Assembly (NCBI GenBank): GCA_016188425.1
Contig: JACPHX010000009.1
Coordinates: 3,582 to 67,581, forward strand
Reading direction: 5' to 3'
DNA from: Candidatus Uhrbacteria bacterium
Lineage (GTDB): Bacteria; Patescibacteriota; Patescibacteriia; UBA9934; GWF2-40-263
DNA length: 64,000 nucleotides
The translations under genes and the position numbers were made by a program. Positions 5,175 to 48,421 of this stretch are shown one piece after another. Numbering within the stretch: the first letter of the stretch is position 1; every line of letters starts with the position of its first letter. The notes beneath the pieces were generated by a model. That model was not told the DNA's origin, searched no databases, and saw only the letters and a list, made by a program, of their open reading frames with translations.

Positions 5175-5180
5175 AGCATC

Positions 5181-10149: not shown

Positions 10150-10152
10150 ATT

Positions 10153-12467
<2,315 letters not shown>

Positions 12468-12469
12468 AG

Positions 12470-20768: not shown

Positions 20769-23654
20769 CTACTCTTCTCGACGAACAGATAGGAGAGAAC
20801 CAAACAAAACGATCATGGAAAAAAAGCCAAAACCCGCCAATGGAAACCCAGTGCGAGGAAGTTCTGCCGCGGCTCCAAGAACTTTTGGTTCTGGAGGGAC
20901 GATCACGGATCCAGAAGAGTCCGCGGGCGGTTCTAGAGGCAATTCATCTGCGGCGCCCAGCACTTGGCCTTGCGGGACCGCTGGCGTCTGCGGCCCTCTG
21001 TCTCCACGTCGATGACCGCCTCCCCCTCCTCCGCCTCCTCCGCCCCCATCGCCGCTTCCCCCCTCTCCGATATCATTTACGTTTACTTCGCAGACGGCAC
21101 TCTGTCCATCCGCGACCAGCAACGAACCTCCTTCAGCACAATCTTTGGCGTAGGTCACCTCATATCCTTCCGGGGCTGTCACCGAGACGGCATGCGCTCC
21201 TTCCGCCACTTCGTGCGTACTCCCCTCTGCGATCGGCGATCCATCCAGCATCAACCCGAAATCGGATTCATTCGCCTGCCCTTCGCCATCATTGGTGATC
21301 AGCAACTCCACGCGCACCGAACCAACGCCCGGTTCGCCGTCGCCATCCCCCCCTCCACCTTCCTCTTCGATATCATTGACCGTTACTTCGCAGGTCTTGT
21401 CTTCACCCCCTCCAACGACAACGGATCCATCCTCGGCGCAATCCTCCCCAAACGTAACCGCATACCCCTCTGGAACCGTTGCCCCAACCGTATGGGTTCC
21501 TTCTGTGACTTCCTTTGCGCTCCCTGATGTGACGACCTCTTCATCCAAAGTCAACCCAATATCTGACTCTTCCGCTTCCCCGCCATCATCATTTACAAGA
21601 GTCAGATGAACCATGAGGGTACCGACACCAGGGTCACCCTCACCTCCTCCCCTTTTCGCGTCGTTGAGATGAACGAGGCAAACACGCAGGTCCCCCGGGG
21701 CGGCATCGCCGGCACACCCATCACCAAATGAGGCGGCATACCCGTGCAAATTATCACCCGTCACTGAGAAAGATCCGGCCGCGAGATAGTCGAGCGTTCC
21801 CGTTTCAGACCCAGTTACTACCTTTGAGGCCTCTGTGTTCGCCAGGTTATATGTGAATCCGGAAGCCAAGCGACTTCCACCGTCATCGTTTGTTACCTCG
21901 GTAAGAATCACGAGCTTGATCCGCTCATCCGCGCCTTCAGAGATGTCATCGTTCACGACCGTGCAATCGATCGGGCTCCCGGGGGCGAGTTCGGACATCG
22001 AGCAGGCGCCGGCATAGAACGGCGCGTACCCTTCGGGTCCATCGGTTTCTTCCACCTCAAAAGACATGGGCCAGACCCGCACATCCGTTCCGCTCGCGCT
22101 TCCCGGAAAACTTACTTCTTGAGACGCCGATGTTTCGTCTGGTACGCTCGCAAGCGAAGCGCCGATTCCTGCGGCCATCAAGGTAAAATCCTCACTCGCG
22201 GATTCGCCTCCATCGTCATTAATCACGAACGTGCGCACGCGTGCCCGTACGGCATCCGCAGGAGTCCACGGAAGTTCCGCCAGGGTATTAACAAACGTGC
22301 AAACCGTTTCTTCGCCCTCGAAGACGGTGGCAATAAGGGTTCCATCTTCAGAGAACGCGCAATGTTCCCCTTCTCCGCGCAAGAACTCGTATTCGGCCGG
22401 CCCGCTTTCCGTCACCCGGTATTCCCCTATGCGCATGGCGTCAACGAGAGTTGAGTCTTCCCCTTCAGGAATGGAGAAAAGAACGTCTCCATACGCATCC
22501 GGCGACACGGCGAAGGAGAAATCGGACGGAGTGCCGGACCCGACAAACGTCTTCCGCAGGCGCAAAGAACCATCGGGATGGGCTCGAAGCTCCGCCCTTG
22601 GAACCAAGATGTATTTGGCGGCCCCTTCGGCAAATGTCAGGAGATAATTTTCCTTGCCCTTATCGGCGTCTGAGCCAATGCGGATGCAAAACGGGACGAA
22701 CGCCTTTTGCCCCGGAAGTACGTTCTTCAGGGTTACGCGATAGTATCGGTAGCCCTTATGGGTCTTGGGCGTAAATTCAATATCGGTATTTCGGCCGCCA
22801 AAAGGACCGGTAACCGCCACATCGACCGGGGCGCCTGCGGCATCGCGCACCGAGGTTAGCGTGCCGATAGATTCAGTCAGATAATCGAAATCGTTCCGTT
22901 TGTGGGCGAGGGCAGGATTAAGCAAAGGCGAGGTAATCTGCTCCAAATCGTCGATCATGATAAACCCGTTATCTCCATGGCCAAAAATGATGGGAAAGGT
23001 AAGATCGCGCGTTTCCGCGGTGGTGTTTGTCGCTTCAAAAACAGAGGGGACGCACTCGCGAAGGTTGTACCCATGCACATACGCGCGCGGATTCGCGATG
23101 TTCATCGCCAAAGGATCGAGTGGGTTTTCGTCCGCATCCGACCACAAATCCACCTTGTCTAAATCGAGCGCGTACACCCCAAGCTCCGCGGGCGGGATGA
23201 CGAGCGGCGGCAATGACTCCATATCGACGGCCTGTTGGGAAAAAAGAGGCGCGTCTGAAGGCGCTTCTTCTTCATCCAAAGACGCATCCGATTCGGCCAC
23301 GGCTGGTTCCTGCATTGTTTCGCTCTGCGCGGGCTGGTCGGTTGCTTCTGTCCCAGCAGCCGTTTCATCCGCCATCCCCGCAACCGATTCTTGCACGGGA
23401 GACGGAACCTCCTGCAGAGGAAAAATTTCCTCAAACCCCTCTGGTCCAGACGCCTCTTCTGTTGACGTCGATTCCTCTGCCGCCGGCTTTTCTGAAGATG
23501 AATCGCCCGCGGCGCTCTGCGCGGCCGTCGACGGATCGGGTGGCGTTTCTGTCTCTTGCGCCTGTGCCAAGGACACGAAGCTGAACCCAACAACGAGGGA
23601 AAGGCAGAAGGCGAGTCGCCACGAAAACGGATGGGCTGGAATTAGACGACTCAT
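20769..23654 (-). CDS. LPXTG-type (LPRTG) sortase-anchored cell-surface protein with tandem beta-sandwich-like repeats and a poly-Gly linker
   Basis: N-terminal signal peptide MSRLIPAHPFSWRLAFCLSLVVGFSFVSLAQAQ. Repeated units of about 100 aa (…V.NDDGG…GY.V.…DC…) occur roughly three times. Then a G12 run, HRRGDRG, and a C-terminus …AAELPRTGFPLAGFGFFSMIVLFGSLLSVRREE, which is a sorting motif plus hydrophobic segment plus basic tail. Confidence 0.8.
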   Translation of the reverse strand: MSRLIPAHPFSWRLAFCLSLVVGFSFVSLAQAQETETPPDPSTAAQSAAGDSSSEKPAAEESTSTEEASGPEGFEEIFPLQEVPSPVQESVAGMADETAAGTEATDQPAQSETMQEPAVAESDASLDEEEAPSDAPLFSQQAVDMESLPPLVIPPAELGVYALDLDKVDLWSDADENPLDPLAMNIANPRAYVHGYNLRECVPSVFEATNTTAETRDLTFPIIFGHGDNGFIMIDDLEQITSPLLNPALAHKRNDFDYLTESIGTLTSVRDAAGAPVDVAVTGPFGGRNTDIEFTPKTHKGYRYYRVTLKNVLPGQKAFVPFCIRIGSDADKGKENYLLTFAEGAAKYILVPRAELRAHPDGSLRLRKTFVGSGTPSDFSFAVSPDAYGDVLFSIPEGEDSTLVDAMRIGEYRVTESGPAEYEFLRGEGEHCAFSEDGTLIATVFEGEETVCTFVNTLAELPWTPADAVRARVRTFVINDDGGESASEDFTLMAAGIGASLASVPDETSASQEVSFPGSASGTDVRVWPMSFEVEETDGPEGYAPFYAGACSMSELAPGSPIDCTVVNDDISEGADERIKLVILTEVTNDDGGSRLASGFTYNLANTEASKVVTGSETGTLDYLAAGSFSVTGDNLHGYAASFGDGCAGDAAPGDLRVCLVHLNDAKRGGGEGDPGVGTLMVHLTLVNDDGGEAEESDIGLTLDEEVVTSGSAKEVTEGTHTVGATVPEGYAVTFGEDCAEDGSVVVGGGEDKTCEVTVNDIEEEGGGGDGDGEPGVGSVRVELLITNDGEGQANESDFGLMLDGSPIAEGSTHEVAEGAHAVSVTAPEGYEVTYAKDCAEGGSLLVADGQSAVCEVNVNDIGEGGSGDGGGGGGGGGGGHRRGDRGPQTPAVPQGQVLGAADELPLEPPADSSGSVIVPPEPKVLGAAAELPRTGFPLAGFGFFSMIVLFGSLLSVRREE

Positions 23655-25666: not shown

Positions 25667-25921
25667 ATGGCTACAAAAGCTGTGACGACACCGAATCCGG
25701 ACAGAAACAAACTGGCAGAAAGAAAAAGTCTAGATATTGCTGGTTTCATAAGGTGTAAAACACTGTTGTTTCAAAAATTCCCGTCACGAACCGACGAACG
25801 CCCTGAATATCCCCCATTGTACCAGAGGACAAGCACAAAGACGCCTTCGTTGAAAATAACACCCCGCCTCTTTCGAAGCAGGGGATTGATCAGGGCGGAC
25901 AATCGAGAACAAAGTCAGTGA
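25667..25921 (+). CDS. Hypothetical small basic protein (low confidence)
   Basis: A strong SD AAGGAG sits 6 nt before the ATG (cgaaggagtattaATGgct). 84 aa, Lys/Arg-rich, no recognisable motif. It lies in a local low-GC pocket and competes with a minus-strand 67-aa two-TM ORF (25546-25749). Confidence 0.3.
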   Translation: MATKAVTTPNPDRNKLAERKSLDIAGFIRCKTLLFQKFPSRTDERPEYPPLYQRTSTKTPSLKITPRLFRSRGLIRADNREQSQ

Positions 25922-26648
25922 GGTACCCCTCTGCACTGATCTGTGCGCCCGTAATTGTTCTCCTGTCGTAGGAGAACGCTCCCTCCACAAAAAACTCACC
26001 TCGATATCGCCTGTCTTCGAAGAAATCCAGCCCTGTCACGACTGGCTCACCTACCGGAAGTCCAATAAGGACCATTCTGTCGACGAGTCGATCCGACACG
26101 GGATCAAACCGTCCTTGCTCTCGAACCTCCAACAGAACCGATTGCCCCGTCGTGCGGTTTATGCATTCCTTCAAGAAGACCGGACCGAAAACGCCAGGCA
26201 CTGCCGCGTTCCAAACGTCGATTCGCTCTGTCGGACAAGCATCCAACAACGTTCGCCAGTAGTTCCGAGGTCCGTCCCAGCGAAAGCAATAGGTCGATTC
26301 TTGATCGACCCCCCGCAGCACATAAACGAAACTCGCCTCGCCGGACACGGCCGTGTCCAGCAGCGCTTCGCGCGCATCCGCTGCGCTGTCTTTGGGGTAA
26401 AAAAGGATGCGTCCGTCAGTGAATAGTACGGGAGAGACGAAGATGAGGGCTCCTGGGATACTGCTTGCATCGAACGTGCCGATATCTCGCACCCCAAGGT
26501 CTAGGAAGACAGTCCCGGCGTCGCGGCCGGAGGACGGCGCATCTTCGAGGCCCGCATCGTGATCGGGAAGATAGACGGGATCCTCTGCGCATGCAAACAC
26601 CACCGCTATGAAAACCGGTAACCGGAACAACGAACCCTGTTTCAACAT
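25890..26648 (-). CDS. Secreted/lipoprotein-like hypothetical protein
   Basis: 252 aa with signal peptide MLKQGSLFRLPVFIAVVFAC followed by AEDP (possible lipobox VFAC). No recognised domain. Confidence 0.5.
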   Translation of the reverse strand: MLKQGSLFRLPVFIAVVFACAEDPVYLPDHDAGLEDAPSSGRDAGTVFLDLGVRDIGTFDASSIPGALIFVSPVLFTDGRILFYPKDSAADAREALLDTAVSGEASFVYVLRGVDQESTYCFRWDGPRNYWRTLLDACPTERIDVWNAAVPGVFGPVFLKECINRTTGQSVLLEVREQGRFDPVSDRLVDRMVLIGLPVGEPVVTGLDFFEDRRYRGEFFVEGAFSYDRRTITGAQISAEGYLTDFVLDCPP

Positions 26649-26746
26649 TGGCTCCTCCTGCTTAAGGACGTGAAAAAGATAGCTTGTTTTTTCTTATCTG
26701 TCAACAACACAAAACCCCGCGCAAGCGGGGATTTGTTGTGAGGATC

Positions 26747-29700
26747 TTACTTAGAATGCTTCTTTTTTCTTGTCAGCACATAGGCCGCTGCTCCCCCAGC
26801 GGCTGCCAGAATCAAGAGAACTATAGGCCAGACGGCTTTCGGTTCCTCTTTCGTTCCAAGTATCCGTTCGCGGATCGAGCCGGGCTTTGTTGGCGCTTTA
26901 GGCGGCATCTGCTGCGCCTGTGCCAATTCCAACGTTCTCCCTGTCGGGCGATTGAGGCGTGCTGGCGATGCTTTCTCCGTTGCCACGGCGATCTTTCTCG
27001 TGATCACCTCTTTCGTTTTGCGATCCGTGTTAAACACCTTGAGAGTAGAGGTGAGATCGAATGCTTGCGGGCTTCCTATATCCGCCACCTGGAAGAGAGC
27101 GACTTTTTCTTCATTCGCCACCACCTCCTGCACGCAAGAGTCTGTGGCGACCATTTCCCCTGCTTCATTTATGACCCCAAGGAGCTTGTACCCTTCCGGA
27201 ACCTGCGCACAGACATTTACGCTCCAGTTGCTATCCGAGGAGAAGATGAACGGATAGAAGTTCTGCGATTCAGTGTTATCCCACAGAAGGACATCCGCGA
27301 AGGTGATGTTCAGGTAACTGCCTTCAAACTCTTCCTCGGTGGAGGCATCCCACTGATGCTCGTGCGATTGATTATGCGGAGGTTTCTTGATGGTACGAAT
27401 CGCTCCGAGCTTCTTGGTGGCCAATGTTCCATCCGGGGTCGCGATGAAGTCGTCTGGATTCTTGTTCTTCCCTGTGAAAACCACTCTTCCGCTGGACTGG
27501 TCCACGTACTTGCCGATCACGAGATATCTTCCTGGAGCCGGTTCACCCACGAGACAGCTGCCGTCGGCGGATGTCGTACAGCTTCCCATCAGGCCGACCG
27601 CTCCGTCGAAGACTTCGTCGTACTTGCTCTTCTTGGGGCCGCTCGTGCCGTAAAGGGCTACGAAGTCGGCATCGTCGCGATTGAACACGCGGACAACCGC
27701 TCCTTCCAGAGGACCTTTGCAGCTCGCCTTGTCGCCCGGGCAGGCGCCTGTTTTGTGCGGATCGACCGTATGAAGCGACATCTCGATCTTATCCGCGGCA
27801 GGGCAGCCGAAGTAGGCGGCGCTTCCCGAGACGGCCGGGCATTGGTCTTCGGCGTTGGGAACGCCGTCCTCATCGTCGTCGCCGGCCAGCGGACACCCGT
27901 TGTTGGATGCCGGGCCGGGAACCGCGGGACATTGGTCGACGTCATCCAGGACTCCGTCGCCGTCGGTATCCGGAATCGGGCATCCATTGTTGGAGGCGGG
28001 ACCGGGGTAGGTTGGGCAGGCATCTACGTCGTCCAGGACTCCGTCGCCGTCGGTATCGGGGATCGGGCAGCCGTAGTTGGAGGCGGGTCCGGGAAGCGCG
28101 GGACATTGGTCGACATTATCGAGGACTCCGTCGCCATCGGTATCCGGGACTGGGCAGCCGTTGTACTCGATGACTCCGACAACGTTTGGACACTGATCGA
28201 CGTTATCGGTGATGCCATCGCCGTCGGTATCGGGGTACGGACACCCGTTGTTTGATGCCGGGCCGGGAACGGCGGGGCATTGGTCGACATCATCGGGAAC
28301 TCCGTCGCCATCCGTATCTGTTGGAACCACCTCCGGGCACCCGTTATTGGAGGCCGGCCCCGGCTCGGTAGGACATTGATCGAGATTGTCCGTAATTCCG
28401 TCGTTGTCCGTATCCGGGTACGGGCAGCCATAATTCGCGGCAGGGCCGGGAATCGATGGGCACTGATCAACGTCGTCGAGGACTCCGTCGTTGTCCGTAT
28501 CCGGGATAGGACAGCCGTTGTAGGCAGAGGAACCGGGAACGGTTGGACAAAGATCGACGTTATCGAGGACTCCGTCGCCATCAGTATCTGGCCATGGGCA
28601 GCCATTGTTGAGGGCGGGGCCAGGTTCGTTTACGCATTGGTCGACATCATCGAGGACTCCGTCGTTGTCCGTGTCTGGTATCGGGCAGCCGTTATTGGAG
28701 GCGGGGCCGGGAATGGTTGGGCACTGATCGACGTTGTCGTAGACACCGTCGCCGTCTGTATCCACGGGTGCCGCGGTTGGGCAGCCGTTGTTGGAGGCGG
28801 GGCCCGCTGTTTCCGGGCAATAATCGGCGCTCTCGAGGACTCCGTCGTTGTCGGTATCCGTGCCTGGCGGTTTGCCAAACCCGAATACAAGTCTTTGGCC
28901 GGGGATTATCGCGCGCGTCAGGGTTTCCCCCTGAAAGGTCATGGTCAAAGTGGAACCGACGAGATCCGTACTGAACAAACAATTTTCAGATGAAGTCACC
29001 CCCGATGACGTACTCGAGAAAAAAACGCTCGACGTATCTAGGTCGATCATGCTTCCTTGATTGACCACCGTGTTCGTCTCGTCTCTCACAGACCATGTTT
29101 CCGGCATAATCGCGGTTTCCGTATCCCCAGGTCCGGACTGCGTCACAGAGACCGGATAATGATTATTGCCGATGTTTGATATCTTTATTTCACCACTCTT
29201 CGGGCACAAAATGGCTGCCTGTTTTCCCATATCAGCACTCACCAAAAACGCCGAACCAGCCGTCATTTCCCATTCGCAAAGGTCGGTGACCCCGTTATTG
29301 AAGCAGGCACCGTTCCCCCACCCGGTCACACCAAAATTACATGAATAAGTTGTACTTACCTCTGGACAGAGCCCCCAAATTGTGGTCTCCATGCTTTCGT
29401 GTTCACAGTTTGAGCGAACTTTGAACTGACCCCCTGCCAATTCACCTGCAGTATAAGGAATGACTCCATCGTCAATAATAATAGCCATTTTGTAATAATC
29501 CAACACCGGCATGTCAACGTTTATTTCTGAAGTCACCCACGATTTAAATCCCTCCTCGTTGCTAGGACGGCCATTATCATCCGTGGTGGTTTCTCTTCTG
29601 ACGTAAGACGTCCTGGTAGGACAGATGGAATCCGGATATGTATTCGGAATTTCACAAAACGCATGCAGCTTCAATAATCCTTCCGTGACGGTCCCATTCA

Positions 29701-32700
29701 ATTCGAGAGGGGCTATGATCACAGAGGCAGAAGACGGTGGAAGCCGGCATCTGTCACAGACGGTATTGATCGTTTGGGTCGGTAAGCATTCGAGCCCGGG
29801 CGTGCAGCCCGGTGGACTCACTTCTCCCAATACGGCGCATGGCGCGCCTCGTCTACTGCTTACTATGCCATCTTCGTCACAGGAAAGAATGCCGGTGTCA
29901 CAATCTTCTCCCGGATCTACCACGCCGTTTCCGCACGTAAGCGCTAAAGCCGCTGATTGTGCCGATGCTGAATGTATGCCGAATATATCCCGTAGATAAC
30001 CAGCGATACGCCCCACCAGGTTTCCCGCAACATGCGGCGGTGATGCAGCGGATACAACCGGGATCCCCGTGTTCACCCAACCAGGATCCAATAGGCACGA
30101 AGAGCACCCGTCTCCGTCTGCCGCATTTCCATCATCGCATTCTTCTGGCAACTGCCAAAGATTATCCCCGCAGCTTGGAAGAATCGGCCGGCAAGAACCA
30201 TCGCACGAATCCGTCTCATCCAGATTTCCGTCGTCGCATAATTCCCCTGGTTCAACCATCCCGTTTCCGCACACAGGCGCGAATTCGCATGTCAAGCAAC
30301 GATCACAAGACGTAATACCGTATCCAGTACACACAAACGGCGGAGCAGAGGCGCGGCAGTTGCTCGCGCATCCGTCGTTATTCACAGGCAGACACAATCC
30401 GCTGCCTATTCCCGCACAGTCGCTATTTTGCGTGCACTCGCGGAGATCGGGAGCAGGGCATCGCATACCGTTGTCACACACTTCTCCAGGATCTTGGACA
30501 GCGTTTCCACACAATCGAACACAGGTATTCACCCCAAAACCAGCGCAAGCAAAACCTGATTCGATTTGACACAAGGGGGAACACCCGTCGCCTCCCTGCG
30601 TGTTTGCATCGTCACAGGATTCGGCTCCGTTCTGAACGCCGTTCCCGCAGTCTGCTGGAATTTCAATGGCGCATACGTTCGAGCACCCATCGTTGTTTTC
30701 GGTATTTCCATCGTCACACGTTTCTCCGCAACCAATGACGCCGTTTCCGCAGGTATCTGTCGGCACCGTCTGGCAACTCGCAGAACAACAAGCCGTTCCG
30801 TCATCGCATGTCTCCCCTGCTTCCACGATAAAGTTTCCGCACACGGCGCCTGCCTCCAGCGTGCAGACGGCGCTGCATCCGTCGCCGGACGTTCTGTTGC
30901 CGTCATCACAAAATTCCGTGGCATCTGTTATCCCATCCCCGCAAAGAACCGGCGTGACGGTGGACCCCAGGTTTACCAATCTCGCCTCCGAATACACCCC
31001 TTCCGAATTTCCTCCGGCCCACACAAAGCCGTTTGGAAGCTCCACCATGTCGTTGAGCGCGGCGGCGCCGGGCGTGACGTCGTATTCCCAATTTGATCCT
31101 CCGTCGGGGGAATGCATCATCGTCGAGGCGGCTCTCGCGTACAAATTCACCCCATCCGCCGTCGCCACCTCAAAGAGGGGTTCGTTAGGTATCGAGGCAT
31201 TGATAAGCACGGTCTGCGACGCGCCGAACTTGACCGCTTTGCCGTTTCCGTTTCCGTCATTTCCAACAAGGAAAAAGTCCGTGAACCCTGGACCGAACTC
31301 TTCTTTTTGGAACACGTCTGTGTAGACGGAAGCGTCTGAACCGTTTCCGAGCAAGAATCGTTCCGAAGAGAACGCGCCCAGCGACGTCGGGGTGACGAGG
31401 AACAACGACGGGCCTTCGCTTGTGCGCGCCGTAAACAAGCACTGGAAGTTATTGTTACAGGTAATATCCGAATCGATGACGCAGGAATTCAGGGCGGTGC
31501 AATCCGAAATGGACACTGGCGTATCGAATGTGGTTCCGAAAAGAATATCCGACGACCAGCTCAAAGTTCGCGCGGTAGCATCGAGCTTCACGCCCATCCC
31601 CCCCCACTCATCGATGCTGATATCCGAAGTGAATGTTCCTGCTTGCGGTTGGTCTTCCCAGGCGCCAGGCGCTCCATATCCGCCTTGGAACGCCTGTCCT
31701 GGATTCCGCCAGAGAAGATTGTTTGCATCAACGGCCAAAACCTGTTCGTCTCCGAAATCCGCAAAGATCTTTTTGATTTCCGGTCCTCCGAAGGAAAGCG
31801 TCCATGACGCCCCTCCGTTTGCGGTTCGAACCATGCTTGTCCCGCCGGGCGTCATCGGTTCTCCGCCCGCCAGACACGTCAGCGCGTCTTTACAGACGAT
31901 CGCGTTGATTTTCTTCAACCCCGTATTGCTGAACGCGGTGTAATTTGATACGGGAATTTGGACGGATGTATACAGGACGTCACCCATCACAAACGGCGAA
32001 GAAGCGGGGCGCGCCGCCACCGCGACCGCGCCGCCGAAGAAGGTCGTCTTCGTCCATGTTGAACCTCCGTCGGTTGTTTGATACACCCCGTCGGAGGCGG
32101 AGAGATATCCTGTATTTGCATCCGCGAAACTCAACGTGGTGATGTCAGTGGGACTTCCTGGCAAGAACGCTTCAAACCAATTCTCCCCGGCGTCAGTCGT
32201 CTGGAAGAGTTTCCCCACAGAGTTCACCGACCCGATAATAAACCCGCTGTTCGCCGTTACCATTTTCAAATCATTGACCTTGAAGAACCCGGCGGAGGAG
32301 GGCAGAATTTCCGTCGATGTCCATCGCGGGGGGGCATTGATCACAGGAACCAAGCAAACCTGCCCTACCAATGAGCTCACGACGTGTGCTGGATTCGTCG
32401 TCCCGGAAGCGTAGTAATTCGTATCCGGGTTGTTGGCAAACTGATAATCCGCCTCAACCTGGCAGGTGTCGGAGCAGCCGTCGCCGCTGGCGGTATTGCC
32501 ATCGTCGCACGCTTCCGTGTTCACGACGTATCCGTCGCCGCAAACCGCCGCCTCGAACAAGCACAGGGAGGAGCAGCCGTCGCCGTCTCGGCCCTTGCAA
32601 TATCCGCCGGCCGTTGCGCAATCTCCATCAGAGCCGCAGGCGGTAGTGTTGTCTCCGGTGCACACGCCGCCGTCATCACATTCTTCCGACAGGTAACTGA

Positions 32701-34174
32701 TGGCTCCGTCGCCGCATCCTACGCGGGCGCCATCGATGACGAACGCGCATGTTCCGCCGTTGGGGCAATAATCGTAGCCACCATCCGGGACATAACAGAC
32801 CGAATCAGGAAAATCTCCGCCGACGCATTTTCCAGCTTCTAACTGGCAATGGCTGGAGCAGCCGTCGCCATCCGTCTGGTTGCCGTCATCGCATGCCTCG
32901 TAGCCGTCTCCGGATACCGCGCCGTCCCCGCACAGGCCGTTCTCTACCACGGAACCACGACGGACGTATCCCGCCTTGAGGGTGCAGTTATCGGAACAAT
33001 AGGCGGACGGATCCTCTACCACAACGCATTGCTCGGTTGGCGCTGCCATCGGACAATCTGCATCGGAGGCACATGCCTGTCCGGCATTCAGCCCCGCATC
33101 GCACAGCGAAACATCATGGTCGTAGACACACTGTTCGCCGCTGGTGCCGCAAAAATCTCCAGATTCATTCGTACAATCCATCCCCGCATTCGCTCCTGAA
33201 TCGCATAGATAGATTTCATCCTGGAAACAATTGGCGGTGGCCGGGCTTGCGCAATCGGCATCTGTCGTACATGTTCCCCCCGCATTCGATCCTGAATCGC
33301 ACTCCTTTACCGCCGCCGTCGGATCGCACTGTTCGCCAGAAAAGAACGTGTAAAAACCGTCTCCGCAAAACCGGCCGCACGAGGCCGCGGAGCCACCGGA
33401 ATCGCATCCGCCGCCAATCCCATCTTGCCCATCGCACTCTTCGCCATATTCAATCAGACCGTTGCCGCAGGTTGCGTTGTCGCACGATCCCCGTATGTCG
33501 TCTGTCAAATAAACGTTCGTATTGAAATTGCCCGTTTCACGGGCGACGACCACCGCTTTTTTGTCATCGATAAGGTCTATCTGCGATGGATCCGAACATC
33601 CCGGCTGCTCGCAGACAGAACCCTTATTGTAATAATGCGCTCCACCGTCGGACGTATAGGAAATCCGATCTCCGCTTAGCACGGCGCCGACGCTCTCATC
33701 AAAAAAAGCCAAATCCGTCGCGTTGGACGGCGCACTTACCTCGGCATCAAACGCCTCGTTCCCGTTGTTGGCTCCCGTGCCATTTATCTGAACCCACGCT
33801 CCCGAAAGGTCTTTTTTCGCCACGCCGTTTTGCGTGAGAGCCACCACCGACGAGGTCGTATCCGTCCGCTCAATGCTTATTACAAAATCTCCCGCGATCG
33901 AATCGTCCACCCAGCTCGCGCCCCCATCAACCGTCTTTGCCACGGATCCGAAATCCCCTTTCAGGTAACAGGTTTGATCCGAACTGCACGTAATCTGTTC
34001 GACGTCGGTGAGCAAATAGTCCGCACTCACCGGCTGCCAGTAGTTCGTCGCGAAGCTTTTTATCGAGTACCTATACACGTACGAGGCGGTTGCAGCCACC
34101 CCCACCAAAACCGCGACCATGGATAGGAACACGATGGGCTTTGAAAGCGTTTTCTTTTTCATAAGTAGAAACAT
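26747..34174 (-). CDS. Giant (2475 aa) anchored extracellular protein with Cys-rich repeats, BNR/Asp-box repeats, about 13 thrombospondin type-3 repeats and a C-terminal TM anchor
   Basis: N-terminal signal anchor [26 protein letters not shown]. Multiple CGDG…EECDDGN…GDGCS..C..E units (Myxococcus cysteine-rich-repeat type). TxDGGxxW BNR motifs. [29 protein letters not shown] repeated 13 times. A carboxypeptidase-regulatory-like segment. C-terminus [30 protein letters not shown], a TM helix plus basic tail with no LPXTG. Confidence 0.85.
27790..28900. repeat. Tandem array of about 81-nt DNA repeats (13 units) encoding the TSP3 calcium-binding repeats
   Basis: Near-identical units such as gggacattggtcgacgtcatccaggactccgtcgccgtcggtatccggaatcgggcatccattgttggaggcgggaccggg recur throughout. 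All three alternative frames on both strands also yield repetitive ORFs in the track. Confidence 0.85.
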
Positions 34175-35133
34175 AGTGTCGTGTGCCGCATGTTACAAAA
34201 AACCTTTTTGATCCTTACTTTGTTAAGAAAGAACAGAAGACAGAGCCCGAACGCGAACAGAACGATGGAAATGACCTGCGAGTAGGTCATGTGCAGGAGC
34301 GGACTCAACCTCGATTCGGTTGGATCCCGAAAAAATTCGAGAGAGAATCTCATGATCGGATACAGTATAGCATACGCGGCAAACACCGTGCCGTGGATAA
34401 GTTTCCGACGACGCACTTCCAGAAGCGCGATGAAGACGAGCAGGTTGCCCAGCGCGAGATAGAGCTGAACAGGATGAAGCGTTTGATATAAAAGATACAG
34501 GTGCGGACCGCTCACATACTTGATGGCCCATGGCAAAGCCGACCGCGTGCCAAAATCATCTCCACTATAAAAACACGTCAGTATCCTGGTAAAAAACGAC
34601 GTGAAAGAAATAGCCGGGGCGATCACGTCAAGCAGCAGGAGCGGAAATTTTTCCTTCACGAGGCGCAGGTAGGCAACACTGGCCGCCAGCAGTCCGACAA
34701 GGCCGCCATAAAAAACCGATCCGCCGGCCTTCCACATCAAAAATCCCTCCCAATCCCACCACCCCTTCCCCCATGGGCCAAGATAATGAAACGCTCTGCC
34801 GCCAAAATACACTCCCAGCTGCGCCACGATCGCAAACATGGCCCAATACCACCACGGACGACGAATCTTTCGCGCACGCGCATCGAGAAAAACCCATGAT
34901 AGGGGAATAAGAGCCCCGGCCGTCCAGATGGAATTCAGAATATTCACCCCTCCTTTTCCGCCTAAGGAAGCATGCGGTTGGTAGGGAATAAACCCATCCG
35001 GACCCAATAGCTGAATCGTCCAGGCCATCACACTGAGAATCGATAACAAAAGAAGCACGCCCACGAAAGCGGTGTGCACCTCTTCACGCTGATACCACGA
35101 GGGTTGAGACATAGCGCTCGTAGTATACAACAT
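34159..35133 (-). CDS. lgt: Prolipoprotein diacylglyceryl transferase
   Basis: Lgt core blocks (…GGLVGLL…; …[15 protein letters not shown]…) in a multi-TM protein. The start is uncertain (ATG candidates at 35112, 35133 and 35169; the ORF track uses 35271). The 3' end overlaps the giant gene's start by 16 nt. Confidence 0.75.
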
Positions 35134-35296
35134 CTTTATGAGGAGGATCGGTTTTTCCACGGCGCGCATCCGACTCAAGATCTTCCCCGCGTTTCCGACG
35201 CTCCTTGAGCTCGCCTGCTTCAAGGTGGATGCCCGTCTTCCCTGTGGATCAGCCAAGGAGAGACCGTCCATATCGATTTATCCCCACCTCCCCCGG

Positions 35297-41809: not shown

Positions 41810-43156
41810 ATGCCCCAACAAACTCTCCCTATCCGCGGCATGCACTGCCGCTCCTGCGAACTGCTTCTGGAGGATTCCATCGGTTCCGTCCAAGGCGTCG
41901 CAAAAGTTAAAGTGGATTTCCGCAAAGGATGCGCCCTCATCGAACACGGGGCGGATATTCCCAGCCGCCACGAGATCGAGCGCGCCATAACAAACGCCGG
42001 GTATGAAATCGGCGCCCCGGGGAAACTTCCTTGGCTCACCAAAGACTCGACGGATCGACGGTACGTCTTCATCGGTATCATCGTCGTCCTCATCCTCTAT
42101 TACGCCGCGCGCGGGACCGGGCTTTTTGACGTTGCTCTGGATGAATCGAACGTGGGCGTCGGTTTCGCCCTGACGCTTGGCCTCGTCGCCGGCATCTCTA
42201 CCTGCATGGCGCTTGTGGGTGGGCTCATCCTGGGTATCTCCGCCCGGCACGCCGAGCGCCATCCGGAAGCCACCTCCTGGCAGAAATTCCGCCCCCATCT
42301 CTTCTTCAATGCTGGTCGCATACTGGGCTACGCGATCCTCGGCGGACTCCTGGGTGGCCTGGGGAGCTTCCTTCAAATCTCCGGCGTCTTCCTCGCGTTC
42401 CTCACCCTCGCGGTCGCGCTCGTCATGATCTCGCTTGGGATTAAACTGACGAATCTCTCCCCGAGGATCTCGGCGACCTCCTTCACGCTTCCCTCCTCCA
42501 TTGCGCGCCTCTTTGGGATCTCGGAACATCAAAAAGAATACAGCCACAAGGCATCCATGGTGACCGGCGCGCTCACCTTCTTCCTCCCCTGCGGATTCAC
42601 GCAAGCGATGCAGTTGTATGCCGTCAGTACCGGGGACTTCAAAACCGGTGCGATGGTCATGGGCGCATTCGCCCTGGGAACCGCTCCGGCGCTTCTTGGC
42701 ATCGGAGGGCTCTCCTCGATCATGAAAGGAACCGCCGCGCGCGTCTTCTATGCCATCGTTGGCATCCTCTTGATTGCCTTTGGCCTCTACAACGTTCGCA
42801 GCGCGCTCTCGATCCTTCCCGTTACCGGTCCAACGAAGACAAATAACGAACTGAACTACTCGCCGATCAATCAAGGAGCGGCGCCTCAAGGAAACGTCCA
42901 GGTCATCACCATGACCCAATCCGCTTCCGGCTACTCCCCCGCCACGATGCGCGTCAAAGTCGGCATCCCGGTTCAATGGGTCGTCACCTCCGAATCGTCC
43001 TTCACCTGCGCCTCCACTATCGTGGCCCCGTCATTGGGAATTAATGCGGATCTGAAAAAGGGACAGAATGTCTTCACCTTCACCCCCACGGAAAAAGGAA
43101 CGATTCCCTTTTCCTGTTCCATGGGCATGTACCGCGGGTCGTTCATCGTTGAATAA
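41810..43156 (+). CDS. Fusion protein: HMA metal-binding domain + CcdA/DsbD-like (DsbD_2-type) 6-TM thiol core + C-terminal cupredoxin-like Cys/Met domain
   Basis: N-terminal GMHCRSCE (GMxCxxC). The TM core has single conserved Cys in GISTCMALVGG and FFLPCGFTQAM, the CcdA/DsbD arrangement. The extracytoplasmic C-terminal domain of about 100 aa carries FTCAS…FSCSMGMYRGSF. Confidence 0.7.
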   Translation: MPQQTLPIRGMHCRSCELLLEDSIGSVQGVAKVKVDFRKGCALIEHGADIPSRHEIERAITNAGYEIGAPGKLPWLTKDSTDRRYVFIGIIVVLILYYAARGTGLFDVALDESNVGVGFALTLGLVAGISTCMALVGGLILGISARHAERHPEATSWQKFRPHLFFNAGRILGYAILGGLLGGLGSFLQISGVFLAFLTLAVALVMISLGIKLTNLSPRISATSFTLPSSIARLFGISEHQKEYSHKASMVTGALTFFLPCGFTQAMQLYAVSTGDFKTGAMVMGAFALGTAPALLGIGGLSSIMKGTAARVFYAIVGILLIAFGLYNVRSALSILPVTGPTKTNNELNYSPINQGAAPQGNVQVITMTQSASGYSPATMRVKVGIPVQWVVTSESSFTCASTIVAPSLGINADLKKGQNVFTFTPTEKGTIPFSCSMGMYRGSFIVE

Positions 43157-43376: not shown

Positions 43377-46262
43377 ATGCAACAACTCTATCGCGTCTCC
43401 GGGATGCATTGCGCTTCCTGCGAAACGCTTATCAACGAGGAGGTCGGAGGACTCCCCGGCGTGGTTGGTGTCGTCACCAGCGCCAAAGACGGAACATGTC
43501 GGGTCACAACCAGTGGGACGGTTTCAGAGGAAGCCGTCATCGGGGCGATCAAAGCGGCTGGCTATGATGCCGTACCGGAGACGATCTCTTCGCCGTCTAT
43601 CCCGACGCCGACCTCGAGAGACCCGCACACGACCCTCATCGAACGCGAAGGAACAACCGTGTCATTTCAATCAACCAAAAAGACTAAAGGAGAGGGAGTC
43701 TTGGAAATCGACGCGCACGGCCGGCCGACCTTCAAGGGAACCGTCACGACGGAACACTCGCATACGATCGAATTTCCCAAGAACATGCGGGAACAAATCA
43801 AAGACATCATCAGCTCCTTCGATTCCCTCTTCAAAGACAGGCAGGAATCGCCACAGACAAACCAACTGACCACGTCAGAAGCATCCGCCGCCTCGAGATC
43901 CGTGCAGCCGGCGCACTCGCAACAGGCCACCTTTGCATTGAACGGCATGCACTGCACTTCCTGCGCCGGCGTCATCAGCAAGAGCATCAAGAAACTCCCC
44001 GGGATCGTTGAAGCAAACGTCAGTTTTGCCTCGGAGAAAGCGCGGGTCACCTTCGATCCCCGCGTGGTGAACGAAGCTGTCATCATCGAACGCGTGAAAA
44101 AAGCCGGCTATCGCGCCGCCGTCTCCGCCAAGGCGGATCCGGAGGAGGATCGGGCGCGCCGCGCCAGGGAGATCGGTTCCTATTGGCGCCGTTTCCTCGC
44201 CGGAGCCATCCTCTCGTTGCCGATGGTCTATTTCATGTTCCTCGATTTCTTCGGCTTCCTTCCCGGCCGCTCCTTCCTCCTCCCTTGGGTCGGCGCCGTC
44301 TCCTTCGCGCTCGCGACCCCCGTCCAGCTCATCCTGGGAGCCGGATTCTACAAAGGGATGTGGTCGAGTTTGCGGATGAAGACGTTCAACATGGACAGCT
44401 TGATCGCGATCGGCACCAGCACCGCGTTCCTCTACAGCGTCGTCAACTTCCTCCTGTACGCGACGAAGAACGGCTCAATCCTAGGCCTCGCGGGAGAAAA
44501 AATTCCCGAGCTCTATTTTGAGACGGCCGCTTTCCTCATCACTTTCGTCCTTCTGGGAAAATGGCTGGAGAGCAAAGCGAAGGGGCAGACATCGGAGGCC
44601 GTGCGCAAGCTCATGGAACTGCAGGCGAAGACGGCGCGCGTCATCCGCGGCGGGAAGACGATTGATGTGCCGATCGGCGACGTCGTCGAACACGACACCG
44701 TCGTCGTCCGCCCGGGAGAAAAGGTGCCGGTCGACGGCATCATCGTCCGCGGCGACTCCTCGATCGATGAATCCATGCTGACCGGCGAGAGCATTCCCGT
44801 CGAGAAGCACGCGGGAGACAAGGTCATCGGCGCGACGGTAAACAAAAACGGCAGCTTCGAGTTCCGCGCGCTCAAGGTGGGAAGCGAGACGGTTCTGGCG
44901 CGCATCATCGAACTCGTAGAGGAGGCGCAGGGATCGCGCGCGCCCATCCAGGCATTTGCCGACCGCATCTCGGCGCGATTCGTCCCGATCGTCATTGGAA
45001 TCGCTGTCGCCACCTTCCTGGTCTGGTACTTCCTTCTCGGCGCCTCGCTTAGCTTCGCCCTCATGGCCTTTACGGCGGTCATCGTCATCGCCTGCCCTTG
45101 CGCGCTCGGGCTCGCGACGCCGACAGCCATCATGGTGAGCACGGGCATAGGGGCGCAACACGGCATCCTCATCAAGGGAGGCGAGCCATTGGAGGCCGCG
45201 TGCAAGGTACGTGCGATCGTCTTTGACAAGACCGGCACGCTCACTAAAGGCAAGCCGGAGGTCACGGACGTACAGACGCTTGGAACCCTCGACGAAGACG
45301 CGGTTATGGAAATCGCCGCGGGGCTGGAGGGCAAATCGGAACACCCGCTTGCGGAAGCCATCTGCCGGTACGCGGAGGAAGAAAACATCGAACCGTCCGA
45401 GGTGGCCTCCTTCCAAGCCGTTCCTGGCCAGGGAGTCCAAGGAGCGATCGATGGGACTCCGTACTATTTCGGCAATCGGAAATTGATGGAAACGCTGCAC
45501 ATTGATGGTCGTCGCATCGAGCGGAAAATGCGTAAGCTCGAGGAGGAGGGCAAAACCGCCATGCTCCTCTCCAGCGACAAAGAACTCCTCGGCATCATCG
45601 CCGTCGCGGACGCGATCAAATCTACGTCCCCATCCGCCATGGCATCGCTCAAACGCCTCGGGCTGGCCGTCTACATGATCACGGGCGACAATACGCGAAC
45701 CGCTCTGGCTATCGCGCGGCAAGCCGGCATCGAGGAGCAGAACGTGCGGGCGGAGGTGCTCCCGGAGGACAAGGCGAATGAGGTGAAAAAAATCCAAGCG
45801 GCGGGAGTGAAGGTTGCCATGGTCGGCGACGGGCTCAACGACGCCCCCGCGCTCGCGCAGGCGGATGTCGGCATCGCGATGGGCAGCGGCACGGACGTGG
45901 CCATGGAGGCGGGAAGCATCGTGCTCATGAAAAACGACTTGGAGGATGTTGTTTCCGCGATCCAGCTGAGCCGCGAGACGCTGGGGAAGGTAAAACAGAA
46001 CCTCTTCTTCTCGCTGTTCTACAACGTGATCGGCATCCCGATCGCGGCCCGCGTCTTCATCGGCTTGGGGATCGTCCTTCGCCCGGAACTCGCGGGCCTC
46101 GCCATGGCCTTAAGCTCCGTCTCGGTCGTGGCGAACTCCCTCTTGCTGCGCCGGTTCCGACCAGGCCGGCGCAACTGGCTCTCGACGTTCGCGCCCGTAG
46201 CGATGACCGGGGCGTTCACGATGGCGTTCATCCTCCTGGCCAGAGTAAGCGCGGGAGGATAG
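43377..46262 (+). CDS. copA: Cu(I)-translocating P1B-type ATPase CopA with two N-terminal HMA domains
   Basis: Two GMHCxSC motifs, TGES, CPC ([12 protein letters not shown]), [17 protein letters not shown]. 961 aa. Confidence 0.95.
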
Positions 46263-48417: not shown

Positions 48418-48421
48418 CTGC

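What the first reader, a model, noticed from the sequence alone, without database searches (positions are those of the whole stretch)
26747..34174. 2475-aa mosaic adhesin-like giant protein with Myxococcus-type Cys-rich repeats, BNR repeats, TSP3 array and a non-sortase C-terminal anchor; lgt overlaps its start
- **Domain mosaic:** the architecture combines domain types more familiar from eukaryotic extracellular matrix and myxobacterial surface proteins.
  - More than 15 CGDG…EECDDGN…GDGCS..C..E modules.
  - At least 6 Asp-box/BNR motifs.
  - 13 calcium-binding thrombospondin type-3 repeats.
  - A CarboxypepD_reg-like domain.
- **Anchor:** a C-terminal TM helix plus KKK tail with no LPXTG or PEP motif, in addition to an N-terminal signal anchor.
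- **Neighbour:** the upstream gene is lgt, the first enzyme of lipoprotein maturation, and its 3' end overlaps the giant ORF's start by 16 nt. That implies co-transcription.
- **Interpretation:** a protein of this size and composition is a prime candidate for cell-cell or cell-host attachment.
Basis: partly seen in the sequence, partly recalled or inferred. Interest (0 to 1): 0.6.

Follow-up and report, generated by a model that had tools for sequence, protein, structure and literature searches.

The report
Giant calcium-binding surface protein, CPR bacterium
This is a real 2475-residue membrane-anchored surface protein of an uncultured Uhrbacteria (CPR) bacterium, built mostly from known repeat modules and probably used for attachment, and the only unexpected points are its rarity and a recurring lgt gene next door.

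Summary
**Observation.** It is confirmed with corrections.
- The ORF 26747..34174 (-) is real. It is already deposited as MBI2551132.1, [quoted passage not shown].
- HMMs recover TSP_3, DUF4215/TIGR02232 and a Ycf48-like BNR propeller.
- My counts are 13 canonical Cys-rich modules (not more than 15), 6 Asp boxes and 12 TSP3 repeats (not 13).
- The CarboxypepD_reg call is not supported.
- The N-terminal hydrophobic segment looks like a cleavable signal peptide.
- The C-terminus is a plain TM helix plus a basic tail, and it matches no known sorting signal.
- lgt overlaps the start by 16 nt, or by an ATGA at Met5. The protein has no lipobox.

**Relatives.**
- One other protein, P0121 (912 aa), has the same domain order in miniature.
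- A Zambryskibacteria protein, P0122, shares only the C-terminal two-domain module.
- P0121 also has lgt next door, and a lipobox protein immediately downstream.

**Reading.** It is a type-I anchored fibrillar adhesin-like protein, with a stalk stiffened by disulfides and Ca2+ that carries propeller heads. The adhesion function is inferred, not shown.

**Novelty and interest.** It is a new variant of a known kind. Interest is modest.

The parts
34159..35271 (-). lgt (prolipoprotein diacylglyceryl transferase), 370 aa, with an N-terminal extension of about 95 aa relative to its homologue in L002
   Evidence: PF01790 scores 3.9e-31, 108.7 bits against a cut-off of 24.9. TIGR00544 scores 86 bits, below its equivalog cut-off of 118.9. 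tblastn against the L002 Lgt gives 39% identity, starting at residue 95.
26747..34174 (-). Giant ORF of 2475 aa. It is identical to NCBI MBI2551132.1 from Candidatus Uhrbacteria bacterium.
34085..34174 (-). N-terminal Sec signal (aa 1-30). It has a KKK n-region, an h-region at aa 13-30 and the site ATA|S. An alternative start at Met5 (34162) forms an ATGA overlap with the lgt stop codon.
   Evidence: Hydropathy scan and the junction sequence. Cleavage is inferred, because no SignalP tool was available.
33485..34039 (-). BNR/Asp-box propeller segment 1 (aa 46-230), with 2 Asp boxes
   Evidence: PSII_BNR matches weakly (E=0.004) to profile positions 8-56. The segment aligns to the N-terminal blades of the P0121 propeller. 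Asp boxes were found by regex.
32450..33484 (-). Cys-rich acidic repeat block 1 (aa 231-575). It holds 5 canonical DUF4215/TIGR02232 modules plus inserted CD[SA]GxNAG Cys knots, 41 Cys in all.
30944..32449 (-). BNR/Asp-box propeller segment 2 (aa 576-1077), Ycf48-like, with 4 Asp boxes
   Evidence: PSII_BNR scores 1.4e-7. Sortilin-Vps10, BNR and DUF6242 give weak hits. PDB Ycf48 chains match at E of about 0.003-0.005.
29747..30943 (-). Cys-rich acidic repeat block 2 (aa 1078-1476), with 8 canonical modules and 46 Cys
28859..29746 (-). Orphan all-beta 'X' domain (aa 1477-1772). Its C-terminal ~190 aa are shared only with P0121.
   Evidence: No Pfam, NCBIfam or PDB hit. An exhaustive phmmer search of 1.84 billion representatives found only the query itself and P0121, at E=3.2e-6. 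The AF2 model has pLDDT 44 and is unusable.
27794..28858 (-). Array of 12 thrombospondin type-3 Ca2+-binding repeats (aa 1773-2127). The period is 29 aa, with 2 Cys per repeat and a net charge of -72.
   Evidence: PF02412 scores 7.5e-31. The repeats were counted in register. They align residue by residue to the solved bacterial TSP3 structure 5wtl at E=2.6e-43. The DNA period is 87 nt with 67% matches.
26975..27793 (-). C-terminal module of two beta-sandwich domains (aa 2128-2400), conserved in P0121 (first domain only) and P0122 (both domains)
   Evidence: Alignments A2 and A3. The AF2 model has pLDDT 59 and is all-beta with two domains. The best Foldseek PDB matches are tandem Ig-like stalks (integrin alpha leg, SpaD pilin, RbmA) at TM-scores of about 0.2. 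There is no Pfam hit, and CarboxypepD_reg is rejected.
26750..26974 (-). Basic Pro/Lys-rich linker (aa 2401-2446), then a single TM helix (aa 2448-2470) and the cytoplasmic tail RKKKHSK
   Evidence: Hydropathy scan. No C-terminal sorting-signal model reaches its cut-off.
26715..26730 (-). Intrinsic-terminator hairpin CCCCGC-TTGC-GCGGGG followed by TTTTGTGTTG, starting 17 nt after the stop codon. It ends the lgt-giant transcription unit.
25890..26648 (-). Downstream 252-aa orphan protein with a lipobox-like signal (MLKQGSLFRLPVFIAVVFAC). It has its own promoter-like site and an AGGAGG ribosome-binding site. It may be associated with the giant gene, but this is not shown.

Best explanation
The ORF encodes a genuine, Sec-exported, type-I membrane-anchored surface fibril of a Candidatus Uhrbacteria (CPR/Patescibacteria) cell.

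**Proposed architecture**
- After probable signal-peptide cleavage, the protein is held by one C-terminal TM helix with a short basic cytoplasmic tail.
- From the membrane outwards it runs: two Ig-like beta-sandwich domains, 12 TSP3 repeats, an orphan beta domain, and then two rounds of [disulfide-rich acidic hairpin repeats + BNR beta-propeller].
- The propeller heads therefore sit at the distal N-terminal end.

**Proposed mechanism**
- The repeats act as a stalk that is rigid when its thiols are oxidised and Ca2+ is bound.
- The propellers, and possibly the X domain, act as ligand-binding heads for attachment to another cell or surface.
- The gene is co-transcribed with lgt and probably translationally coupled to it, but the protein is not itself an Lgt substrate.

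**Shown versus inferred**
- Shown: the ORF, the domain identities, the two hydrophobic segments, the overlap and the terminator.
- Inferred: cleavage, topology, stalk and head roles, and adhesion.
For: **The gene is real**
- The ORF is confirmed and is identical in an independent assembly.

**Domain identities**
- TSP_3, DUF4215/TIGR02232 and PSII_BNR all score above their curated cut-offs.
- The 12 TSP3 repeats keep DxDxDGxxDxxD and both Cys, and they align to the solved Ca2+-binding bacterial TSP3 structure 5wtl. The title of the 5wtl paper, as cited in PMC12045341, states that its Ca2+ binding depends on the intra-repeat disulfide.
- Cys-rich repeats of this type are interpreted as the presentation stalk of M. 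xanthus TraA (PMC12045341).

**Topology**
- Only two hydrophobic segments exist. The first has an AXA site and the second is followed by a basic tail.
- The ectodomain is strongly acidic and holds 139 Cys.
- The C-terminal module is predicted as tandem beta-sandwiches resembling integrin legs and pilins.

**Family and context**
- P0121 has the collinear order SP, propeller, Cys repeats, X domain, TSP3, beta domain, TM. The order is therefore a conserved design, not an accident.
- The same window encodes other surface proteins, including an LPRTG pilin-like protein and a 1580-aa cadherin/Big_9 protein.
- Large surface proteins with adhesion domains are reported for other Patescibacteria (PMC13059738).
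- The operon structure is supported.
Against: - No binding partner, expression data or localisation data exist.
- The propeller match to Ycf48 covers only about 80 of 303 profile positions. Propeller completeness was not modelled, and neither was the question of whether the two segments form one fold.
- DUF4215 has no experimentally defined function.
- The X domain and the C-terminal module have no annotated relatives, so a non-adhesive activity could be hidden there.
- A protein with 139 Cys needs an oxidising exterior or a Dsb-type system, and that was not demonstrated for this organism.
- Signal-peptide cleavage was judged by eye, without SignalP or DeepTMHMM.
Confidence: 0.55

Rival explanations
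1. It is an envelope scaffold or S-layer-like structural protein. Its role would be to bind and buffer divalent cations and to organise the cell surface, not to attach the cell to a partner.
For: - The ectodomain net charge is about -245, summed over the aa 46-2400 segments, and about -230 for the whole protein. The TSP3 block alone carries -72, with 12 Ca2+-binding repeats.
- In known bacterial proteins, TSP3 repeats mostly sit in envelope-tethering OmpA-family proteins.
- Co-transcription with the envelope-biogenesis gene lgt fits an envelope role.
Against: - The protein is a singleton with only two or three distant relatives. Core envelope proteins are usually conserved within a lineage.
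- It has no OmpA, SLH or LysM wall-binding domain.
- Distal globular propellers on a long stalk are the layout of adhesins, not of lattice formers.
Confidence: 0.2
2. It is a surface-anchored glycan-active enzyme or lectin. The BNR propellers would be sialidase/GH-like or carbohydrate-binding modules that harvest host glycans, and the repeats would be only spacers.
For: - Asp-box propellers occur in sialidases and GH74-type enzymes (general knowledge).
- NCBIfam gives a weak hit to the F510_1955 family glycosylhydrolase (9.3e-6, 25 bits) and Pfam a weak hit to Sortilin-Vps10.
Against: - The glycosylhydrolase hit is far below its cut-off (25 vs 175 bits) and covers only the same ~75 residues (aa 639-712) as the Ycf48 match.
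- The best-scoring model is the non-catalytic Ycf48 propeller.
- No CAZy-type catalytic domain was detected anywhere in the protein.
Confidence: 0.1
3. It is one part of a conserved lgt / adhesin / lipoprotein envelope module. The adjacent Lgt would mature a partner lipoprotein, encoded immediately downstream, that works together with the fibril.
For: - lgt is the immediate neighbour of the gene in both full-architecture family members. The two Lgt are only 39% identical, the orientation differs, and no other gene is shared within +-10 kb.
- In both loci, the only lipobox-bearing ORF is the gene immediately downstream: 1 of 47 ORFs in the window and 1 of 15 in L002.
Against: - There are only two loci.
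- The two downstream proteins are not homologous (E=0.28).
- The window's lipobox (VFAC) is non-canonical, with F at position -2, and could be an SPase I site.
- A terminator and a separate promoter-like site split the downstream gene from the giant.
- P0122 has no lgt nearby.
- Neither adhesin has a lipobox.
Confidence: 0.12
4. It is a chimeric or repeat-collapsed assembly artefact.
For: The gene comes from a metagenome-assembled contig and contains long repeat arrays.
Against: - The sequence is identical over 19.5 kb in a second, independently assembled contig.
- The TSP3 DNA units match each other at only 67%, with 2% indels.
- GC content is uniform with the flanks.
- The frame stays open for 7.4 kb.
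- The domain order is mirrored in P0121 from another sample.
Confidence: 0.02

Closest known systems
P0121 (912 aa, Logan SRR22388166 contig, unannotated), the only collinear relative found
   Same: - It has the same order: signal peptide, Ycf48-like BNR propeller, DUF4215 repeats, X domain, TSP3, beta-sandwich, then TM plus a short basic tail.
- Identity is 30-31% in the X domain and the C-terminal module.
- lgt is adjacent, and a lipobox protein lies downstream.
   Different: - It has 1 propeller, 2 Cys repeats and 1 TSP3 repeat, against 2 propeller segments, 13 Cys modules and 12 TSP3 repeats in the giant.
- It lacks the second beta-sandwich.
- Its lgt is divergent rather than overlapping.
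Myxococcus xanthus TraA/TraB cell-cell recognition adhesin pair
   Same: - TraA uses TIGR02232-type Cys-rich repeats as a stalk that presents an N-terminal recognition head.
- TraB carries Ca2+-binding TSP3 repeats (PMC12045341).
- The giant unites both repeat types in one chain, with distal globular heads.
   Different: - The giant has no PA14-like variable domain, no MYXO-CTERM (no Cys before the TM), no beta-barrel and no OmpA domain.
- NF033763 TraB scores 231 against a cut-off of 700, and MtsC scores 59 against 350.
- CPR cells lack an outer membrane (general knowledge), so outer-membrane exchange cannot apply.
Bacterial OmpA-family TSP3 proteins (PDB 5wtl, Capnocytophaga gingivalis)
   Same: The TSP3 repeats align residue by residue, including both Cys and all the acidic ligands (E=2.6e-43).
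   Different: - In 5wtl the repeats link to a peptidoglycan-binding OmpA domain in a diderm.
- Here they sit between an orphan domain and Ig-like domains above a TM anchor.
Fibrillar adhesins of monoderm bacteria (LPXTG-anchored stalk-plus-head proteins) and the very large surface proteins reported in Patescibacteria and Omnitrophota
   Same: - They share a C-terminal anchor, a repetitive stalk and distal putative binding domains.
- Large size and surface targeting with adhesion domains are reported for Absconditicoccaceae (PMC13059738).
- TSP3/dockerin-type giant proteins with a C-terminal TM are reported in Omnitrophota (10.1101/2023.11.21.568195).
   Different: - The anchor here is a plain TM helix, not a sortase signal, although an LPRTG protein lies 3 kb away.
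- The stalk is made of DUF4215 and TSP3 repeats, not Ig/Cna-B/Rib domains.
- The size is modest compared with the >30,000-aa Omnitrophota proteins.
Ycf48/HCF136 seven-bladed propellers
   Same: They give the best HMM and PDB matches for aa 631-710, and they share the Asp-box blade pattern.
   Different: - Ycf48 is a small, stand-alone PSII assembly lipoprotein.
- Here the propeller is a module of a non-photosynthetic surface protein, and only about a quarter of the profile is matched.

Membership tests
Thrombospondin type 3 repeat (PF02412) | HMM score above the Pfam gathering threshold | tested here: met
   106 bits against 25, E=7.5e-31
Thrombospondin type 3 repeat (PF02412) | Ca2+-ligand motif DxDxDGxxDxxD and two Cys per repeat (intra-repeat disulfide) | tested here: met
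   All 12 repeats keep the motif, with the last one as [12 protein letters not shown], and all keep both Cys. They align to the solved structure 5wtl. Actual Ca2+ binding was not tested.
Myxococcus Cys-rich acidic repeat (TIGR02232 / DUF4215, PF13948) | HMM above the curated cut-offs, and the repeating pattern CGxG...ExCDDGN...GDGCSxxC | tested here: met
   TIGR02232 scores 232 bits against 20.8, and PF13948 scores 91 against 27. Regex finds 13 canonical modules.
BNR/Asp-box beta-propeller (Ycf48-like, PF14870) | HMM above the gathering threshold | tested here: met
   35.3 bits against 27, but only profile positions 63-139 of 303 are matched.
BNR/Asp-box beta-propeller (Ycf48-like, PF14870) | Repeated Asp boxes (SxDxGxTW) spaced at blade intervals, and a closed propeller fold | tested here: inconclusive
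   Six Asp boxes were found. The propeller regions were not modelled, so blade number and closure are unknown, as is whether aa 46-230 and 576-1077 form one fold.
CarboxypepD_reg-like domain (PF13620/PF13715) | HMM or profile-level similarity | tested here: not met
   No hit at E<=1 on aa 2125-2475. hhalign probability against the window's own CarboxypepD_reg domains is 2.3%. The model shows a generic beta-sandwich only.
Sortase substrate (LPXTG cell-wall anchor, TIGR01167) | LPXTG-type pentapeptide directly before the TM helix and basic tail | tested here: not met
   No LPXTG is present. TIGR01167 scores 14.5 against 15.9 and matches only the TM and tail positions 13-34. The neighbouring gene 20769..23654 does carry LPRTG.
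MYXO-CTERM / PEP-CTERM / other exosortase-, archaeosortase- or rhombosortase-type tags | Signature motif (invariant Cys, PEP, GlyGly and so on) before the TM, and a model score above its cut-off | tested here: not met
   There is no Cys in the last 128 residues. Only Loki-CTERM appears, at 15.3 bits against 19.9, and no other sorting model appears at E<=10.
Bacterial lipoprotein (Lgt substrate) | Lipobox [LVI][ASTVI][GAS]C at the end of the signal peptide | tested here: not met
   The first Cys is residue 63, and the signal ends in VAATA|S. The same holds for P0121.
M. xanthus TraB (NF033763) / MtsC (NF047638) | Full-length model score above the cut-off, with a beta-barrel plus OmpA domain (TraB) or a MYXO-CTERM tag (MtsC) | tested here: not met
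   Scores are 231 against 700 and 59.5 against 350. The hits are confined to the TSP3 array.
Fibrillar adhesin (stalk repeats + adhesive domain + surface anchor) | Repetitive stalk and a surface anchor | tested here: met
   There are 13 Cys modules, 12 TSP3 repeats and 2 Ig-like domains, plus a C-terminal TM anchor.
Fibrillar adhesin (stalk repeats + adhesive domain + surface anchor) | Demonstrated or family-annotated adhesive (ligand-binding) domain | not testable with these tools
   The propellers and the X domain are candidates only. No binding data or annotated adhesive-domain family was found.
Lgt (PF01790), the neighbouring gene | HMM above the Pfam threshold | tested here: met
   108.7 bits against 24.9. 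It scores below the NCBIfam equivalog cut-off (86 against 118.9), as is common for divergent CPR proteins.

The most novel reading that the evidence does not exclude
The giant and its mini-homologue may define a rare, CPR-specific attachment module. A type-I anchored propeller/Cys-repeat/TSP3 fibril would be genetically linked to Lgt and to a downstream lipoprotein partner. Surface presentation or function of the fibril would then depend on a lipoprotein matured by the neighbouring Lgt. The X domain and the C-terminal beta module would be new folds specific to this system.
Probability: 0.12. Interest if true: 0.55.

Novelty: new variant of a known kind. Interest (0 to 1): 0.3.

Why it matters
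**If the reading is right**
- It would give a concrete candidate for how a member of the Uhrbacteria, a lineage with no cultured representative (general knowledge, not checked here), contacts other cells or surfaces.
- It shows that the 'myxobacterial' Cys-rich stalk and TSP3 modules have been recruited into monoderm-type CPR surface proteins with a plain TM anchor.
- The small family (giant, P0121, P0122) adds two orphan extracellular domains that are worth structural study.
- The recurring lgt neighbourhood is a cheap hypothesis to test on more genomes.

**What limits it**
- The protein is already deposited and correctly named by its dominant repeat.
- Large adhesin-like surface proteins in Patescibacteria are a recognised pattern.
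- No long-standing question becomes directly testable from this locus alone.

Tried and rejected
**Searches that added little**
1. The full-length homology search returned 490 hits, all through DUF4215 repeats and each covering <=18% of the query. It found no full-length relative.
2. A word-index search with the two orphan regions concatenated returned nothing, not even the giant itself. It is therefore a weak negative.
3. A scan of GTDB genomes with Lgt and another with the C-terminal profile found nothing. A JGI metagenome scan with the C-terminal profile found only the already known P0122 contig.

**Structure work**
4. The AF2 model of the X domain reached pLDDT 44. It was not used for fold search.

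**Ideas tested and rejected**
6. CarboxypepD_reg homology.
7. Known C-terminal sorting signals.
8. Lipoprotein status of the giant protein.
9. Homology between the two downstream lipobox proteins.
10. Shine-Dalgarno analysis, which was uninformative. Only 7 of 40 crude gene starts in the window show an SD-like motif.
11. Recent horizontal transfer judged from composition. GC content is 0.55-0.57 across the gene, like its flanks.
12. A polymorphic-toxin or contact-dependent-inhibition reading, because no toxin or immunity module is present.

**Also checked**
- No tRNA or Rfam element occurs anywhere in the window.

Full report

The ORF 26747..34174 on the minus strand is open for 2475 codons from an ATG. 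At this base composition the chance of such an open frame is about 1e-41. GC content across it (0.55-0.57) matches the flanks.

The exact protein is deposited at NCBI as MBI2551132.1, [quoted passage not shown], on a 78,961-bp contig. It also occurs on an independently assembled Logan contig from SRR12113421. That contig is 100% identical to the window over 19,487 bp.

The TSP3 array has an 87-nt period, but its units match each other at only 67% at the DNA level. Repeat collapse is therefore unlikely.

**2. Domain scan**

It does not fail.
- Pfam: TSP_3 at 7.5e-31, DUF4215 at 5.1e-26 and PSII_BNR (Ycf48-like BNR propeller) at 1e-8, all above their gathering scores.
- NCBIfam: TIGR02232 myxo_disulf_rpt at 2e-70. 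The hits to TraB and MtsC lie far below their cut-offs and are confined to the TSP3 array.

Counting in register gives:
- 13 canonical CG[DN]x...ExCD modules, 5 in aa 236-575 and 8 in aa 1078-1476. Several carry inserted Cys knots such as three CD[SA]GxNAGxxC units.
- 6 Asp boxes.
- 12 TSP3 repeats of 29 aa, each with DxDxDGxxDxxD and two Cys.

The TSP3 repeats align residue by residue with the solved bacterial TSP3 structure 5wtl (E=2.6e-43). According to the title of its paper, as cited in PMC12045341, Ca2+ binding in 5wtl depends on the intra-repeat disulfide.

The "CarboxypepD_reg-like domain" is not supported. There is no Pfam hit at E<=1 on aa 2125-2475. hhalign probability against the CarboxypepD_reg domains of two other proteins in this same window is 2.3%.

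**3. Anatomy (N to C)**

| aa range | Feature | Evidence |
|---|---|---|
| 1-30 | Signal: KKK n-region, 18-residue h-region, ATA\|S site | |
| 46-230 | BNR propeller segment 1 | |
| 231-575 | Cys-rich block 1 (41 Cys) | |
| 576-1077 | BNR propeller segment 2 | |
| 1078-1476 | Cys-rich block 2 (46 Cys) | |
| 1477-1772 | Orphan all-beta 'X' domain | |
| 1773-2127 | TSP3 x12 (net charge -72) | |
| 2128-2400 | Two beta-sandwich domains | |
| 2401-2446 | Basic Pro/Lys linker | |
| 2448-2470 | TM helix, then RKKKHSK tail | |

These are the only two hydrophobic segments in the protein. The AF2 model of the C-terminal module has pLDDT 59, with 70-85 in the domain cores. Its best Foldseek matches in the PDB are tandem Ig-like legs and stalks (integrin alpha, SpaD pilin, RbmA) at TM-scores of about 0.2. 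This points to a generic stalk-type fold, not a specific relationship.

The C-terminal 61 residues match no known sorting-signal model above its cut-off. There is no LPXTG, no PEP, and no Cys in the last 128 residues. By contrast, the gene at 20769..23654 (-) carries LPRTG and a SpaA_2 domain. The genome therefore uses sortase, but not for this protein. The "non-sortase anchor" is confirmed. The simplest reading is a stop-transfer type-I anchor.

**4. Relatives**

The full-length search found 490 proteins. All match through DUF4215 repeats and cover no more than 18% of the query. Most of the hits that carry a source name are from Myxococcota. One is a Dojkabacteria (CPR) giant.

An exhaustive phmmer search of the X region against 1.84 billion representatives returned only the query itself and one other protein, P0121 (912 aa, E=3.2e-6). 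P0121 is a miniature of the giant. Its order is signal peptide, Ycf48-like propeller, two DUF4215 repeats, X domain, one TSP3 repeat, a beta-sandwich, a TM helix and a short basic tail.

A profile of both sequences then found P0122 (1032 aa, Candidatus Zambryskibacteria). It shares the TSP3-plus-two-beta-sandwich module at 39% identity, but it has a different N-terminal half and no TM.

Scans of GTDB genomes and JGI metagenomes added nothing. The giant therefore looks like an expanded member of a very small CPR family with a conserved design. A duplicated [propeller + Cys repeats] unit and TSP3 amplification would account for the expansion. That evolutionary route is an inference.

One caveat applies. 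The word-index search failed to return the giant itself for its own sub-sequences. Negatives from that tool are therefore weak, and the C-terminal module was never searched exhaustively.

**5. The lgt neighbour**

The upstream ORF is Lgt (PF01790, 3.9e-31). It overlaps the annotated start of the giant by 16 nt. A second ATG at codon 5 overlaps the lgt stop codon as ATGA, the classic arrangement for translational coupling.

No terminator lies between the two genes. A strong hairpin plus a T-run follows 17 nt after the giant's stop codon. The next gene has its own promoter-like site and an AGGAGG ribosome-binding site. Co-transcription of lgt and the giant is therefore well supported.

The giant is not an Lgt substrate. 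There is no lipobox, and the first Cys is residue 63.

Unexpectedly, P0121 also has lgt as its immediate neighbour. There it is divergent, with a 327-bp gap. The two Lgt are only 39% identical, and nothing else is shared within +-10 kb. In both loci the gene immediately downstream is the only lipobox-bearing ORF in the region: VFAC in the window (1 of 47 ORFs) and LTAC in L002 (1 of 15). These two proteins are not homologous to each other.

With two loci this is a lead, not a result. P0122 has no lgt nearby.

**6. Mechanism**

- Shown: it is an exported, very acidic, Cys-rich protein with known Ca2+-binding repeats and one C-terminal TM.
- Inferred: after signal cleavage it stands on the membrane as a fibril. 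The Ig-like domains, the TSP3 array and the Cys-rich hairpin repeats would form a stalk stiffened by Ca2+ and disulfides. The BNR propellers, and perhaps the X domain, would be the distal binding heads.

This layout is that of fibrillar adhesins. It also parallels M. xanthus TraA, where the same Cys-rich repeats are thought to form the presentation stalk of a recognition head, and TraB, which carries TSP3 repeats (PMC12045341).

Large surface-targeted proteins with adhesion domains have been described in other Patescibacteria as candidate host-interaction factors (PMC13059738). TSP3/dockerin-type giant proteins with C-terminal TM segments have been described in Omnitrophota (10.1101/2023.11.21.568195).

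The rival readings rank lower but are not excluded. They are an envelope or Ca2+ scaffold, a glycan-active propeller enzyme, and an lgt-linked module.

**7. Verdict**

Nothing here would greatly surprise a specialist. The protein is already in GenBank under an appropriate name, its modules are known, and giant adhesin-like proteins are a recognised CPR trait.

The new elements are:
- the unprecedented combination of domains;
- the tiny collinear family;
- two orphan domains;
- the plain TM anchor;
- the recurring lgt/lipoprotein neighbourhood.

I rate it a new variant of a known kind, with interest 0.3.

Noticed in passing
window 25890-26648 (-); L002 12797-14308 (+): In both loci the gene immediately downstream of the adhesin encodes an orphan protein with a lipobox-type signal. 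The window has MLKQGSLFRLPVFIAVVFAC and L002 has MTYLSDKKWVFFFFLLFLTAC. Each is the only such ORF in its region (1 of 47 and 1 of 15). The two proteins are not homologous to each other.
   Followed up: partly
L002 8879-9673 (-) next to 10001-12739 (+): The 912-aa mini-homologue P0121 also has lgt as its immediate neighbour, here divergently oriented. No other synteny with the window is detectable.
   Followed up: partly
window 53230-57972 (-): This is a 1580-aa surface protein with six Big_9/cadherin-like repeats, a weak CarboxypepD_reg hit below the gathering score (5.9e-05, 23.8 vs 32.3 bits) and a weak C-terminal AhpC/TSA (thioredoxin-fold) hit, also below its gathering score (8e-05, 23 vs 26 bits). 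If real, that would be an unusual fusion of an adhesin-like stalk with a thiol-redox domain. It might be relevant to disulfide formation on the cell surface.
   Followed up: no
window 41810-43156 (+): This is a fusion of HMA, a DsbD_2 (CcdA-like thiol-disulfide transporter) and a cupredoxin domain. It lies next to P-type ATPase-like genes at 43377-46262 and 46390-48540, whose products match a cation P-type ATPase gene in L002 by tblastn; they were not domain-scanned. It may be part of copper or redox handling at the envelope.
   Followed up: no
window 20769-23654 (-): This 961-aa protein has SpaA_2 (prealbumin-like pilin) domains and an LPRTG sortase signal followed by a TM helix and the tail RREE. 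It shows that the organism has sortase-anchored surface proteins alongside the TM-anchored giant.
   Followed up: partly
window 59699-61651 (-) and 57985-59328 (-): The first is a 650-aa protein with CarboxypepD_reg x2, SdrD_B and purple-acid-phosphatase N-terminal domains. It sits next to a 447-aa Cache-domain (dCache_3/sCache_3) protein. Together with the cadherin-like giant, this makes a cluster of surface and sensory genes.
   Followed up: no
window 2098-8760 (-): This region encodes a fused Complex1_30kDa/49kDa [NiFe]-hydrogenase-like large subunit, an NuoK-like protein and a Proton_antipo_M subunit. That makes a group-4 hydrogenase or Mrp-like membrane complex, which is uncommon for a reduced CPR genome. 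By inference from ORF layout and termini, not from a family scan, 9.7-16.1 kb looks like an F-type ATP synthase operon.
   Followed up: no
window 34987-35271 (-): The Lgt ORF carries an N-terminal extension of about 95 aa, with an extra hydrophobic segment (aa 66-90). The 264-aa Lgt of L002 lacks it. The true start codon is uncertain.
   Followed up: no
P0122 (L003 8001-11099): The Zambryskibacteria relative pairs the shared TSP3-plus-two-beta-sandwich module with a different N-terminal beta-propeller-like region (weak Vgb_lyase hit) and a non-TM C-terminus. This suggests the C-terminal module is a mobile CPR 'stalk base' cassette.
   Followed up: partly
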